64,000 nucleotides of DNA from Escherichia coli. GTDB taxonomy: Bacteria > Pseudomonadota > Gammaproteobacteria > Enterobacterales > Enterobacteriaceae. Location: NCBI RefSeq assembly GCF_011045215.1, contig NZ_CP049201.1; one strand, written 5' to 3'. The position numbers and the translations under genes were made by a program. Under the pieces are notes generated by a model. That model worked only from the letters and a program-made list of their open reading frames with translations, was not told where the DNA came from and did not search any database. Positions 30,556 through 32,558 of this stretch are shown here, piece by piece (position 1 is the stretch's first letter; each line of letters begins with the position of its first letter).

Positions 30556-30772
30556 GGTGCACCTCCTGCACATCAGCCATGATAATTTTTCCGGCCTTAT
30601 CCAGTGCCTGATCGGCTTTTAGCTGCACAAATGCTAAATAATGGGAGATGCATTCTGATTCTCTGGCTGCGTGTTTATGCGCCACACCAGCGATAGCAGA
30701 AATCTCAATAAGTGAATCCATTAGCGTTTTGATAGCGTCTACCGCTGCATCAGACCATGTTGTATTACACAT
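30548..30772 (-). CDS. hypothetical protein (74 aa), replication operon
   Basis: ORF MCNTTWSDAAVDAIKTLMDSLIEISAIAG...; ATGTGTAA overlap with upstream gene. Confidence 0.4.
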   Translation of the reverse strand: MCNTTWSDAAVDAIKTLMDSLIEISAIAGVAHKHAARESECISHYLAFVQLKADQALDKAGKIIMADVQEVHHA

Positions 30773-31130
30773 GCTCCACCTCCTGGCGAATACGGGCAGC
30801 GAATACCATCACGCAGCCATCAGGAGATTGCTGGCGTGCTTCCTGTTCGCTGGTGGCCTCGATGTGAATTACGCGCGGTTGTGCCGTGCTCAGGGCGATA
30901 AAACGCCAGATAAAATTGTTCTCGCATTTCTGAATAAACAGCGTGTTTTCTTCGCGCCCTTTCCATGTTGCCGAGATATAGCCCATGTCATTGAGCATCT
31001 CGCAGGCATCAACCAGCGTATCGGCGGCTACGTGTACAGTGTTTTTACCGTCAGCTATGCAATCACGGTGCACCGCCAGGAAGGTGTATATAAATTTAGG
31101 GTGAGTTTGGGTATGCTGTGTTCCAGCCAT
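30765..31130 (-). CDS. hypothetical protein (121 aa), first gene of replication operon
   Basis: C-terminal portion of the 597-codon open frame; start placed at MAGTQHTQTHPKFIY... with AGGAGT SD 7 nt upstream. Confidence 0.5.
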   Translation of the reverse strand: MAGTQHTQTHPKFIYTFLAVHRDCIADGKNTVHVAADTLVDACEMLNDMGYISATWKGREENTLFIQKCENNFIWRFIALSTAQPRVIHIEATSEQEARQQSPDGCVMVFAARIRQEVEHV

Positions 31131-31231
31131 AATCGTTACTCCTATTAACGGTTTGGTTAGAAGCCCGGTTAGTGTTAGCGCACTGCCGGGTTTCGTCGTT
31201 TCAATTGCTGAATTGCATGTATCAGCCCTTG

Positions 31232-31285
31232 TGGTATTCAGATTACATTTTGGTGAATACCATTTCAAGTCTTTTTTGGTATTCA
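31232..31285. promoter_or_regulatory. divergent promoter region with repeated GGTATTCA operators
   Basis: GGTATTCA at 31232 and 31278, inverted TGAATACC at 31253, between the leftward replication operon and rightward gene 31330. Confidence 0.5.
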
Positions 31286-31329
31286 CTTTTGTATTACACT
31301 GCATCCCGTTATTAATCGGAGGTGCAAAC

Positions 31330-31629
31330 ATGTCCACGAGTTCTGTTAACAATAAGTCACAGCAACTGAATGCCAGATTTCCACATGAAGTAGTGAGTGG
31401 CATTGAGGCATCCCTACAGCCAGGGGAAACTAAAGCGAATTTTATAGTTACGGCTGTGCGCGGTGAAATCGCCCGCCGCCAGGCAGAAGGAAGCGGAGAA
31501 AATCCCCTGGTTTCTTCGCTCGATGCGCTGGAACAAATGGAAAAAATAGGGGTCGAACTCGCCGAAAATATAGAGCAGCTTGTTTCCGTTGCTCGTGAAG
31601 AACTCCAGCGGCGCAAGGCCAAAGGGTAG
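31330..31629 (+). CDS. putative island regulator (about 100 aa), divergent from replication operon
   Basis: MSTSSVNNKSQQLNARFPHEVVSGIEASLQPGETKANFIVTAVRGEIARRQAEG... with GGAGGTG SD; protein-like composition. Confidence 0.5.
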   Translation: MSTSSVNNKSQQLNARFPHEVVSGIEASLQPGETKANFIVTAVRGEIARRQAEGSGENPLVSSLDALEQMEKIGVELAENIEQLVSVAREELQRRKAKG

Positions 31630-31698
31630 CCAGAATAATCACCATTCGCGCCAGAGCCTAAGGAACTCGAGCGCCAGACTGTAAGCAGGGGGCGAACC

Positions 31699-31878
31699 AT
31701 GCCTAAATTAAAAGATTTTTTAGCCCAGCAAATGGCGAAAGAAATTGCACAAGAAACCGAACAGGGAAAGGTTAAAACCTTCCACCTTGAGCAATTTCTT
31801 AAAACGCACAAGCGCACAAAAATGGGGCTATATACCTGGAAAACATCACGACATGGTGATGTTGAAGAGCATAAATAA
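31699..31878 (+). CDS. small hypothetical protein (59 aa)
   Basis: Hand translation MPKLKDFLAQQMAKEIAQETEQGKVKTFHLEQFLKTHKRTKMGLYTWKTSRHGDVEEHK; same frame as 31330 gene; AGGGGG upstream. Confidence 0.35.
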   Translation: MPKLKDFLAQQMAKEIAQETEQGKVKTFHLEQFLKTHKRTKMGLYTWKTSRHGDVEEHK

Positions 31879-32118
31879 CCACTATCAGCGCCGTGGTGTG
31901 AGGATCCATGGCACAAAGCAGTATCCAAGAGAAAAATGATGGACGCACAGAAACTAGATATACTCACCTCCTTTCTGGAAGAACGTAAACGAAAATGGGG
32001 GATAAAACCCCATCCTTCCACCAGAGAATTACCAAGAGCATCAACAGAGTGTTTTTTGCTTGAGGATTTCATCAAAAAAAGCAGTCCTGTTTTGTGCAGG
32101 AATACGCGATACAAGTAA

Positions 32119-32558
32119 CCATTACCCAGTGCAGGCAACAGGGAAAAAATTCCACTAAAGATTTGCCCACCAGCCACAAATGCAGCATTGTTGGCGATGC
32201 ATTCAGGTTTGATTTGCCGTAATACCCACTGGCGACCCTCTGCGGTCGCCTTTGTTTTATCCAGAACGAAACCAGACATCAGATTGATCAGCACCGGACG
32301 ACCAGAAAAAATCGTATCAGTCGCGCCACCAGCAAAATTTTTTGCTTTCCGGACAGCGTGGCCAACGATATTTTGCAGCAAAATATTCTGCATTTCTGGC
32401 GTGCTGTAGTAACGGTGATCAGCGCCTTCACATTGAACGAACTTGTCGCTAAAATTCACCCACATAGCAAACATCGCGGTGCTGTAGGTAATTCGTTCAC
32501 AAAGGCGCTCCGGCAACGGGGCGCTTTTTCTTTTTGTAACGGTCAGAGCGTTACACAT
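32119..32558 (-). CDS. hypothetical protein coupled to the antirepressor-like gene; 3-prime end unresolved, coordinates approximate
   Basis: Start ATG 32558 overlaps upstream stop (ATGTGTAA); first about 110 aa protein-like (MCNALTVTKRKSAPLPERLCERITYSTAMFAMWVNFSDKF...); no in-frame stop until 30765. Confidence 0.3.

What the first reader, a model, noticed from the sequence alone, without database searches (positions are those of the whole stretch)
30765..32558. A 597-codon stop-free frame that is mostly antisense to three rightward genes
The ORF track reports one 597-aa minus-strand ORF. Only its two ends look like protein. The middle 330 residues are Ser/Cys/Trp-rich and lie antisense to three rightward ORFs (31330, 31699, 31936), which all share one frame and have proper ribosome-binding sites. 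A stop-free run this long is very unlikely by chance at this GC content. It suggests either codon-usage constraint in the sense genes or real antisense read-through from the antirepressor operon into the replication operon.
Basis: seen in the sequence. Interest (0 to 1): 0.4.

Follow-up and report, generated by a model that had tools for sequence, protein, structure and literature searches.

The report
Eta-like read-through ORF over antisense genes
The 597-codon frame is real and is kept stop-free by selection: it is this phage satellite's version of phage P4's nested eta/kil gene, a long frame probably translated only so that transcription can run from the antirepressor gene, across an opposite-strand control cassette, into the replication genes.

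Summary
In detail: ORF 30765-32558 (-) has 597 codons (605 stop-free), while the other five frames carry 13-35 stops. Chance probability is about 2e-9, even allowing for the plus-strand proteins.

It is not a one-off. Of 88 related loci chosen only on the short Icd domain, 68 keep this frame open for 247-611 codons. That holds across unrelated middle cassettes, about 1,600 non-redundant codons in all.

The frame shows no amino-acid constraint. pN/pS is 0.90 in the 5' block. Over YlcI it only shadows the sense gene.

Only residues 477-597 are a real protein domain (Icd-like, NF033153), with their own AGGAG-N8-ATG. The long form starts at GGAGG-N9-ATG, overlapping the antA stop.

Phage P4 has the same architecture. 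Its nested kil/eta ORF carries the same C-terminal domain, and the long form starts 2 nt after the vis (alpA-family) stop. Published work says eta translation prevents termination ahead of the replication genes.

Here P4's CI/seqA RNAs are absent. The ORF instead crosses, antisense, a YlcI cassette, two plus-strand terminators, one covariation-supported antisense RNA element and one candidate antisense RNA.

Verdict: a new variant of a known kind. The mechanism is inferred from homology, not shown.

The parts
30765..32558 (-). Long eta-like ORF, 597 codons, stop-free from the antA stop to the Icd stop
   Evidence: The same frame is open in 68 of 88 related loci, at 247-611 codons.
30765..31130 (-). 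Nested short Icd-like (P4 Kil-like) gene, 121 codons, in the same frame and with the same stop as the long ORF. It has its own SD AGGAG (31143-31139), 8 nt before ATG 31130.
   Evidence: NF033153 E=6e-23; sequence; sense-frame pN/pS 0.23; only two SD-preceded ATGs lie in this frame.
32551..32572 (-). Translational-coupling junction: SD GGAGG (32572-32568), 9 nt, then ATG 32558-32556 overlapping the antA stop TAA 32553-32551 (cATGTGTAA)
   Evidence: Invariant in 39 of 68 complete unique loci.
32551..33351 (-). antA/AntB-family antirepressor gene immediately upstream
   Evidence: Pfam AntA E=6e-23; pN/pS 0.22.
32119..32550 (-). 5' block of the long ORF: conserved DNA (85-97% identity) with no protein-level constraint
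   Evidence: pN/pS 0.90; variable sites 39/36/32 by codon position; indels of 3 and 6 nt only; no family hits.
32501..32528 (+). Strong plus-strand intrinsic terminator (12-pair stem plus T-run). It accounts for the conserved 'KSAPLPERL' motif of the long ORF. Its G.U pairs become A.C mismatches on the minus strand, so it is directional.
   Evidence: nearly invariant in 53 loci.
32231..32250 (+). Second plus-strand intrinsic terminator downstream of the cassette
   Evidence: Variants in the alignment stay paired through G.U on the plus strand.
32427..32538 (+). Candidate ~75-nt cis-antisense RNA opposite codons ~7-32 of the long ORF. Promoter TTCACA-17-TAAAAT (32427-32455), hypervariable body, then terminator 32501-32528.
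   Evidence: The -10 is conserved at the same position in three sequence-divergent variants: TAAAAT, TATAAT, TGATATAAT. All variants share a 5' hairpin plus terminator layout. No expression data.
31936..32118 (+). Plus-strand ORF3 (60 aa): weak RBS, no family support, uncertain gene
31699..31878 (+). Plus-strand ORF2 (59 aa), hypothetical protein
   Evidence: phrog_21027 E=4e-12. PGAP calls a 66-aa hypothetical at this position in relatives.
31330..31629 (+). YlcI/YnfO-family gene (99 aa) transcribed divergently from Icd. N-terminal half hypervariable between islands. Candidate immunity/repressor protein.
   Evidence: NF041551 E=1e-16; phrog_6522 E=7e-40; sense pN/pS 0.37-0.40; 24 alleles, always in the same frame relative to the long ORF.
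31131..31329 (.). Divergent control region between the Icd and YlcI starts, inside the long ORF. Operator-like repeats GAATACCA (31284-31277, 31239-31232) and its complement TGGTATTC (31262-31255).
   Evidence: read directly from the sequence. Function inferred.
31125..31200 (+). Structured SymR-like RNA element antisense to the Icd translation start. The loop of hairpin 1 displays the anti-SD CUCCU. Hairpin 2 is GC-rich and followed by U-rich sequence.
   Evidence: Rfam symR 37 bits against a gathering score of 61, E=3e-4, recurring in L034 and L045. MFE -33.8, z -5.6. 26 pairs, 8 with compensatory changes, G.U pairs only on this strand.
30548..30772 (-). Next gene of the leftward operon, joined to the long ORF by the same CATGTGTAA stop/start overlap behind GGAGG
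   Evidence: phrog_5146 E=1e-47.

Best explanation
The 597-codon frame is this satellite's counterpart of the nested eta/kil gene of phage P4. The only protein domain under amino-acid selection is the C-terminal Icd-like (Kil-like) part, residues 477-597. It can be translated alone from its own AGGAG-N8-ATG on transcripts that start at a promoter in the divergent region.

The long form starts at an ATG that overlaps the antA stop codon behind a GGAGG. Ribosomes finishing antA can therefore re-initiate there and keep translating across about 1.4 kb that would otherwise be untranslated RNA. That RNA is antisense to the YlcI cassette, to its two terminators and to one or two cis-antisense RNAs.

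Continuous translation would keep the nascent transcript covered. It would block Rho-dependent termination and the action of the antisense RNAs on the Icd start. Transcription launched upstream in the int/alpA/antA zone could then read through the immunity region into Icd and the primase operon, regardless of the local repression that silences the internal promoter.

Shown here: the frame is under selection to stay open, its amino-acid sequence is not constrained, its start is coupled to the upstream gene, and it is homologous in position and C-terminal domain to P4 eta/kil.

Inferred from the P4 precedent, not shown: translation of the frame is what prevents termination.
For: Homology and position:
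- P4 ORF 8168-8812 (-) carries the same NF033153 domain at its C-terminus (E=1.4e-20).
- Its last 65 codons begin [12 protein letters not shown]..., aligning with the window's MAGTQHTQTHPKF....
- A 197-codon form would start 2 nt after the vis/alpA-family stop.
- Both ORFs end with an 8-nt overlap on the next gene of a primase operon.
- PMC4825925 summarises P4 immunity as premature termination.

Selection for openness:
- 68 of 88 loci chosen on the Icd domain alone are open for 247-611 codons, with 41 distinct run lengths.
- About 1,604 non-redundant codons carry zero stops, against 2.9-5.8% stops per codon in the other frames and 3.1% in the equivalent antisense frame of the island's other genes.
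- Indels in the 5' block are 3 or 6 nt.
- The one YlcI-bearing locus with a closed frame (L051) has an out-of-frame deletion.

No protein-level constraint: pN/pS is 0.90 in the 5' block. Over YlcI the frame has 0.43-0.50, which is what a passive wobble-aligned shadow shows in control genes (0.31-0.34 against 0.22-0.28 in the sense frame).

Coupling: cATGTGTAA behind GGAGG in 39 of 68 unique loci, and an ATG 20 nt after an alpA-like stop in 7 more. Only two SD-preceded ATGs exist in the frame, at residues 1 and 477.
Against: - No RNA-seq, Term-seq or ribosome-profiling data were available, so translation of the long form and read-through are inferred.
- The minus-strand RNA across the cassette is U-rich rather than C-rich. 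The only clearly C-rich, G-poor stretch is at 31080-31120, so composition gives little independent support for Rho loading along the ORF.
- About a third of Icd-bearing loci lack a coupled long frame. In 13 unique loci an opposite-strand cargo gene lies upstream. Eight unique loci have only a 128-145-codon run; seven of these carry a different repressor cassette and L051 has an out-of-frame deletion. The device is therefore dispensable in some relatives.
- In the 325-codon group the frame is open over YlcI without any coupled start. That could be a relic, or it could mean part of the openness comes cheaply from YlcI's composition (P 0.08-0.37).
- The primary P4 paper (Forti et al. 1999) could not be read here.
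Confidence: 0.62

Rival explanations
1. Passive by-product. The frame is open because the plus-strand genes are poor in Tyr/Gln/His contexts and A-rich, so their wobble-aligned antisense frame has few stops. The remaining pieces are open by chance and shared descent.
For: Given the protein sequences, random synonymous codons leave the antisense frame open with P = 0.08-0.37 per gene. All YlcI alleles sit in the same relative frame and share conserved tails. The 325-codon group is open over YlcI without a coupled start.
Against: The product for the window is still about 2e-9. The 5' block alone has P = 3.5e-4 and the divergent region 0.013. Openness recurs over about 1,600 non-redundant codons in unrelated cassettes. 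Other frames of the same 5'-block alignment gained or lost 2-11 stops while this one has none. Indels are multiples of three.
Confidence: 0.04
2. A genuine long protein. The ~66-kDa product is the functional form, and its N-terminal and middle parts do something sequence-specific, for example tempering Icd toxicity or localising it.
For: PGAP and other pipelines call long 'Icd-like' proteins of 335-600 aa in many genomes. The start signals are strong. From my recollection of Forti et al. 1999, overexpressing P4 Eta is toxic, as it is for Kil, so the long form is made in P4.
Against: The 5' block has pN/pS 0.90 and no codon periodicity. The middle is whatever lies antisense to a mosaic, exchangeable cassette, with 32-100% YlcI identity between loci. 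No family hits outside the Icd domain. The 5' block is built around plus-strand terminators and a promoter.
Confidence: 0.1
3. Translation matters, but not through Rho. Ribosomes arriving from antA are needed to melt the antisense-RNA duplex or the structure at the Icd start, or to protect the mRNA from RNase III cleavage of sense/antisense duplexes. The long frame would then be a long-range translational coupling device for Icd and downstream genes.
For: A covariation-supported RNA element antisense to the Icd SD and ATG. A candidate antisense RNA at the ORF's 5' end. The whole cassette mRNA is complementary to the long ORF mRNA. Compositional evidence for rut sites is weak.
Against: In the homologous P4 system the reported effect of eta translation is on transcription termination. 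The two mechanisms are not exclusive, and nothing here separates them.
Confidence: 0.2

Closest known systems
Phage P4 nested genes eta/kil in the left operon (Forti et al. 1999, J Bacteriol 181:5225; summarised in PMC10111431)
   Same: - Same C-terminal Icd-like domain (NF033153) in both.
- A short form nested in frame within a long form.
- The long form starts at the end of the upstream gene of the alpA/vis operon.
- An internal promoter and immunity region lie inside the long ORF.
- The ORF ends with an 8-nt overlap on the next gene of a primase operon.
- Reported function of the long form: its translation prevents termination, so upstream transcription reads through.
   Different: - P4's ORF is about 200 codons and contains the CI (Rfam C4) and seqA (isrK, c4-a1b1) RNA elements on the same strand. 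None is detected here.
- Here the ORF is 597 codons. It runs antisense across a YlcI/YnfO-family gene and two further plus-strand ORFs, two plus-strand terminators and one or two cis-antisense RNA elements.
- It is coupled to antA rather than directly to the alpA homologue.
Phage P1/P7 immI operon (c4 RNA - icd - ant)
   Same: An Icd cell-division-inhibitor domain next to an antirepressor gene. From my own knowledge of Biere et al. 1992, translation of icd is required to avoid Rho-dependent termination before ant.
   Different: Gene order is reversed here (antA, then Icd). No C4 RNA or a'/b' targets were detected. P1 icd is a short ORF, not a long frame crossing antisense genes.
SymE/SymR type I toxin-antitoxin (cis-antisense RNA over the toxin's translation start)
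   Same: The plus-strand element at 31125-31200 starts opposite the Icd ATG and covers its SD. It has a two-hairpin layout that matches the whole SymR model.
   Different: It scores 37 bits against a gathering threshold of 61, so it is not a member by Rfam's criterion. The target is an Icd-like gene, not SymE. No expression evidence.
Shadow (antisense) ORFs opposite real genes
   Same: Over YlcI the long frame is the wobble-aligned antisense frame and inherits a low pN/pS passively.
   Different: Ordinary shadow frames in this island carry 3.1% stops. This one has none over about 476 codons, extends through non-coding DNA, and is kept open across unrelated cassettes.

Membership tests
P4 eta/kil-type nested gene | C-terminal Kil/Icd-like domain | tested here: met
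   NF033153 matches window residues 549-592 (E=3e-21) and P4 ORF residues 161-208 (E=1.4e-20). BLASTP aligns the two short-form N-termini (E=1e-4).
P4 eta/kil-type nested gene | Short form nested in the same frame, with its own translation start | tested here: met
   AGGAG-N8-ATG at 31130. It is one of only two SD-preceded ATGs in the frame. Translation itself was not tested.
P4 eta/kil-type nested gene | Long form starts at or next to the stop of the upstream gene of the alpA/vis operon (translational coupling) | tested here: met
   The ATG overlaps the antA stop by 8 nt behind GGAGG. This is invariant in 39 unique loci, and 7 more start 20 nt after an alpA-like stop. In P4 the start falls 2 nt after the vis stop.
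P4 eta/kil-type nested gene | Lies upstream of, and is joined to, the replication (primase) operon | tested here: met
   8-nt stop/start overlap with the next ORF. DUF4222 and a D5_N/DUF5906 primase-helicase lie downstream.
P4 eta/kil-type nested gene | Immunity RNA CI (Rfam C4) and its targets seqA/seqC (isrK, c4-a1b1) inside the ORF | tested here: not met
   No C4, isrK or c4-a1b1 hit at E<=1 in window 27500-36000, nor at E<=0.01 in 8 related loci. All three were found in P4 as a positive control.
P4 eta/kil-type nested gene | Translation of the long form suppresses Rho-dependent termination | not testable with these tools
   This needs transcript mapping with stop-codon mutants and Rho inhibition. 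The only computational hint is a C-rich, G-poor stretch at 31080-31120.
P1 immI (c4-icd-ant) | C4 antisense RNA upstream of icd, with ant downstream of icd | tested here: not met
   No C4 hit. antA lies upstream of Icd.
Rfam SymR (RF01809) | Score at or above the family's gathering threshold | tested here: not met
   37.0, 39.6 and 35.3 bits against a threshold of 61. The structure itself is supported by covariation.
Conserved protein-coding region (for the upstream 476 codons) | Purifying selection on amino acids (pN/pS well below 1, third-position excess) | tested here: not met
   5' block: pN/pS 0.90 and variable sites 39/36/32 by codon position. Over YlcI only shadow-level values are seen.

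The most novel reading that the evidence does not exclude
In a large family of E. coli and Salmonella satellites the P4-style CI-RNA immunity region has been replaced. In its place is an opposite-strand module: a hypervariable YlcI-family protein plus cis-antisense RNAs over the starts of both nested genes. The eta-like frame has been stretched to as many as 600 codons to carry ribosomes across that module. The frame would then be a sequence-independent 'ribosome bridge' selected purely for having no stops. That forces three antisense genes, two terminators and two small-RNA genes to evolve under a no-antisense-stop constraint.
Probability: 0.45. Interest if true: 0.62.

Novelty: new variant of a known kind. 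Interest (0 to 1): 0.5.

Why it matters
It gives a clean natural example of an ORF selected for being translated rather than for what it encodes: about 1,600 non-redundant stop-free codons with pN/pS near 1.

It explains why annotation pipelines alternately-120-aa and 300-600-aa 'Icd-like' proteins in thousands of enterobacterial genomes.

It extends the P4 eta/kil anti-termination logic to PICI-type satellites whose immunity module lies on the opposite strand.

It points to testable regulators of satellite induction: YlcI-family alleles and two antisense RNA candidates.

It is also a caution for gene finders. Here the long ORF and the antisense genes inside it are probably both translated.

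Tried and rejected
- Pfam, NCBIfam and PHROGs on the whole ORF and on its N-terminal 146 aa gave nothing outside the Icd domain.
- I looked for a full-length match in 5,426 complete E. coli genomes. None covers 80% or more of 30500-32800, so the region is mosaic.
- I searched for C4/CI, isrK and c4-a1b1 RNAs in the window and relatives. None was found, although all three were detected in P4.
- I tried to read Forti et al. 1999 (PMC94026). It is not held, so I relied on PMC10111431's summary and on my own recollection, marked as such.
- Two literature searches for Icd-like/YlcI/eta in satellites found no description of an eta-like ORF crossing antisense genes.
- C/G composition as a proxy for rut sites was inconclusive.
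- I considered the plus-strand ORFs as artefacts of a real minus-strand gene. I rejected this for YlcI, which has its own family models and the lowest pN/pS in its sense frame. ORF3 remains unsupported.
- I considered the 5' block as a real N-terminal domain. I rejected this on pN/pS 0.90 and because its conserved motif is a plus-strand terminator.
- The single 'polymorphic stop' counted in the ORF frame is a projection artefact at the non-homologous 3' edge of the alignment. Every run is stop-free in its own register.
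Full report
**Observation.**
- Its frame has no internal stop. The nearest upstream in-frame stop is TAG at 32585-32583, giving 605 stop-free codons.
- The other five frames over the same interval carry 13-35 stops.
- At 47% GC the naive chance of such a run is 5e-14.
- The three plus-strand ORFs (31330, 31699, 31936) share one frame and lie antisense to residues 310-410, 227-287 and 147-208. The middle of the translation is 18% Ser and 5.7% Cys.

**Context.** The ORF sits in an ~11.5-kb integrative satellite of the Gram-negative PICI/P4 type, next to chromosomal comM and hdfR. 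Every gene below is on the minus strand:
- integrase (33956-35206)
- an AlpA-like gene (33404-33592)
- antA (32551-33351)
- the long ORF
- two small ORFs
- DUF4222
- a D5_N/DUF5906 primase-helicase (28148-29896)
- a ProQ/FinO-family gene and others

No complete E. coli genome covers 80% or more of the region, so it is mosaic.

**What the pieces are.**
- Only the last 121 codons are a recognisable protein: an Icd-like domain (NF033153, E=3e-21).
- The plus-strand ORF at 31330 is a YlcI/YnfO-family protein (NF041551, E=1e-16; phrog_6522, E=7e-40).
- ORF2 hits a PHROG of unknown function. ORF3 has no support and only a weak RBS.
- PGAP annotates relatives inconsistently. Usually it calls a 73-122-aa Icd-like gene plus YlcI and hypotheticals on the other strand. 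Sometimes it calls a 191- or 310-aa 'Icd-like protein' that overlaps them.
- A search of predicted proteomes returned 725 relatives. The top 120 are 335-598 aa long, and many are named Icd-like by NCBI.

They do not.
- All seven E. coli loci fetched by DNA similarity are open from the antA (or alpA-like) stop to the Icd stop, at 389-611 codons, although their middle cassettes differ.
- To avoid ascertainment on openness I fetched 80 IMG/VR loci using only the 121-aa Icd protein. Together with the window and the seven E. coli loci that makes 88.
- Of these, 68 have runs of 247-611 codons, five of them cut short by contig ends. There are 41 distinct run lengths, and the other five frames carry roughly 5-38 stops in the long runs.
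- Counting only sequence with no BLAST match of 75% identity or more to an already counted locus, about 1,604 codons are stop-free. The other frames carry stops at 2.9-5.8% per codon.
- The equivalent antisense frame of the island's other genes carries stops at 3.1%.
- For the window alone I combined synonymous-codon resampling of the three plus-strand genes (P = 0.076, 0.111, 0.190) with shuffles of the non-coding pieces. The result is about 2e-9.
- So the sense genes' composition makes the antisense frame cheap to keep open (P = 0.08-0.37 per YlcI allele), but it does not explain the run.

**Does the frame encode a protein upstream of Icd?** No evolutionary sign of it.
- In the conserved 5' block (32163-32558, 85-97% identity among 22 unique sequences) the ORF frame has pN/pS 0.90. 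Variable sites fall 39/36/32 on the three codon positions.
- Indels there are 3 and 6 nt.
- The other frames of the same alignment show 2-11 polymorphic stop sites.
- Control genes give pN/pS 0.22-0.28 in their sense frame and 0.31-0.34 in the wobble-aligned antisense frame.
- Over YlcI the sense frame gives 0.37-0.40. The long-ORF frame, which is that same wobble-aligned frame in all 24 alleles, gives 0.43-0.50, a passive shadow.
- The frame is therefore selected to be open, not to encode particular residues.

**Translation signals.**
- The long ORF's ATG (32558) overlaps the antA stop (cATGTGTAA) and lies 9 nt after GGAGG. This junction is invariant in 39 of 68 complete unique loci.
- In 7 more loci, which lack antA, the ATG lies 20 nt after an alpA-like stop behind GAGG.
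- A second strong start, AGGAG-N8-ATG at 31130, opens the 121-codon Icd form.
- These are the only well-placed SD-preceded ATGs in the frame. A third regex match, at 32072, has only a weak, poorly spaced AGGA.
- The ORF ends with the same CATGTGTAA overlap onto the next gene.

**The precedent.** Phage P4 (NC_001609) has ORF 8168-8812 on the strand of its primase operon.
- It begins inside the 3' end of ORF88 (Vis, AlpA family) and ends with an 8-nt overlap on epsilon.
- Its C-terminus hits the same Icd-like model (E=1.4e-20).
- Its last 65 codons ([21 protein letters not shown]...) align with the start of the window's short form.
- This is the kil/eta pair. I recall lengths of 65 aa for Kil and 197 aa for Eta, and both fit the geometry: a 197-codon form would start 2 nt after the vis stop.
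- PMC10111431 (section 20) summarises Forti et al. 1999. A promoter internal to eta gives transcripts that terminate early through CI/seqA RNA interactions. [quoted passage not shown] - PMC4825925 describes P4 immunity as premature termination driven by CI RNA.
- I could not read Forti et al. directly.

**What differs from P4.**
- Rfam finds C4 (CI), isrK (seqA) and c4-a1b1 inside P4's eta. It finds none of them in the window or in eight related loci.
- Here the long frame instead crosses features on the opposite strand.
- First, the YlcI gene. Its N-terminal half is hypervariable between islands. It is transcribed divergently from Icd across a 200-nt region with GAATACCA/TGGTATTC repeats.
- Second, one or two further small ORFs.
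- Third, two plus-strand intrinsic terminators at 32231-32250 and 32501-32528. The second accounts for the conserved 'KSAPLPERL' motif. Its G.U pairs make it directional.
- Fourth, a structured element at 31125-31200 antisense to the Icd SD and ATG. It gives sub-threshold SymR hits in three diverged loci. MFE is -33.8 kcal/mol, z = -5.6. It has 26 pairs, 8 with compensatory changes, and G.U pairs only on this strand.
- Fifth, a candidate ~75-nt antisense RNA at about 32462-32538. Its -10 box is conserved at the same position in three unrelated sequence variants upstream of the invariant terminator, and all variants share a hairpin-plus-terminator layout.

**Exceptions.**
- Eight unique loci have only a 128-145-codon run. 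In seven of them a different small RHH-like gene and a 227-aa opposite-strand gene lie between alpA and Icd.
- The eighth, L051, carries YlcI but has an out-of-frame deletion across the SymR-like element.
- Thirteen unique loci, including the 325-codon group, are open over YlcI but are preceded by an opposite-strand cargo gene and have no coupled start. They are plausibly derived from antA-coupled islands that share the same YlcI allele.
- In L078 and L085 a deletion fuses the antA N-terminus in frame to the long ORF.

**Mechanism.** The best-supported reading has two routes of expression.
- Route 1: transcripts from the internal promoter express the short, toxic Icd/Kil-like form and the replication genes. 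These transcripts are held down locally by YlcI and/or the antisense element over the Icd start.
- Route 2: transcripts from the upstream integration/antA zone are translated continuously, because ribosomes leaving antA re-initiate on the long frame and find no stop for 597 codons. That keeps Rho, and the antisense RNAs, off the nascent RNA and lets RNA polymerase reach the primase operon.
- Shown here: homology, nesting, coupling signals, selection for openness, and absence of amino-acid constraint.
- Inferred: that the long frame is translated, and that its translation prevents termination.
- Compositional evidence for Rho sites is weak, apart from a C-rich, G-poor stretch at 31080-31120.
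- A close rival is that translation acts mainly against the antisense RNAs or RNase III rather than against Rho. A sequence-specific long protein and a passive by-product are both disfavoured.

**Verdict.** The first, codon usage of the sense genes, is only a contributing factor. The feature is a new variant of a known kind: P4 eta/kil. I found no description of an eta-like frame maintained across an antisense protein-coding cassette.

Noticed in passing
window 31125-31200 (+): A structured RNA element antisense to the Icd SD and start codon. It resembles SymR over the full model but scores below Rfam's threshold. The anti-SD CUCCU sits in the first loop. The second hairpin covaries strongly between islands. 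If expressed, Icd plus this RNA would resemble a type I toxin-antitoxin pair.
   Followed up: yes
window 32427-32538 (+): A conserved promoter (-10 box kept in three unrelated sequence variants) about 45 nt upstream of an invariant terminator, with a hypervariable body between them. This is a candidate ~75-nt cis-antisense RNA opposite the 5' end of the long ORF, possibly an allele-specific immunity determinant. No Rfam match.
   Followed up: partly
window 32223-32657 (+): The codon-aligned opposite frame of the 5' block is also nearly stop-free: 144 codons in the window, 116-117 in relatives, with 0 fixed and 2 polymorphic stops. It has the lowest pN/pS of the six frames there (0.54). It runs through a strong terminator and has no obvious RBS. 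Unexplained.
   Followed up: partly
window 32551-32559 and 30765-30773 (-): The same stop/start junction, CATGTGTAA (..HV* / MCN..) behind GGAGG, occurs at both ends of the long ORF. It may be a conserved module boundary used in recombination between islands.
   Followed up: no
window 26415-26957 (-): The island encodes a ProQ/FinO-family protein (Pfam E=6.5e-24). Proteins of this family bind structured antisense RNAs with terminator hairpins, so it could act as a chaperone for the island's candidate antisense RNAs.
   Followed up: no
window 31232-31284: Repeats GAATACCA (two copies) and the inverted TGGTATTC lie in the divergent region between the Icd and YlcI starts. They look like operators for the YlcI-family protein.
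   Followed up: no
L078 1831-2946; L085 1824-2924: A deletion has fused the first ~49 codons of antA in frame to the long ORF, and the frame is still open (366-371 codons).
   Followed up: no
L051 ~1400-1600: This is the only YlcI-bearing locus with a closed frame. It has a deletion spanning the SymR-like element that shifts YlcI out of the usual relative frame. It is probably a defective island.
   Followed up: partly
L039 2454-3364 (strand opposite to Icd): In the short-run islands YlcI is replaced by an unrelated 64-aa RHH-like gene plus a 227-aa cargo gene on the opposite strand, and no long frame covers them.
   Followed up: partly
window 35813-36000 (+): An Rfam Rev39_5p_UTR hit (110 bits, above threshold) lies just outside the integrase end of the island. 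It is cut by my search boundary.
   Followed up: no
window 16584-20181 (+): tRNA-Glu, tRNA-Asp and tRNA-Trp genes, followed by LysR-type (hdfR-like) and comM/yifB-like genes, suggest an rrn operon flank. This places the island in an E. coli-like chromosome.
   Followed up: no
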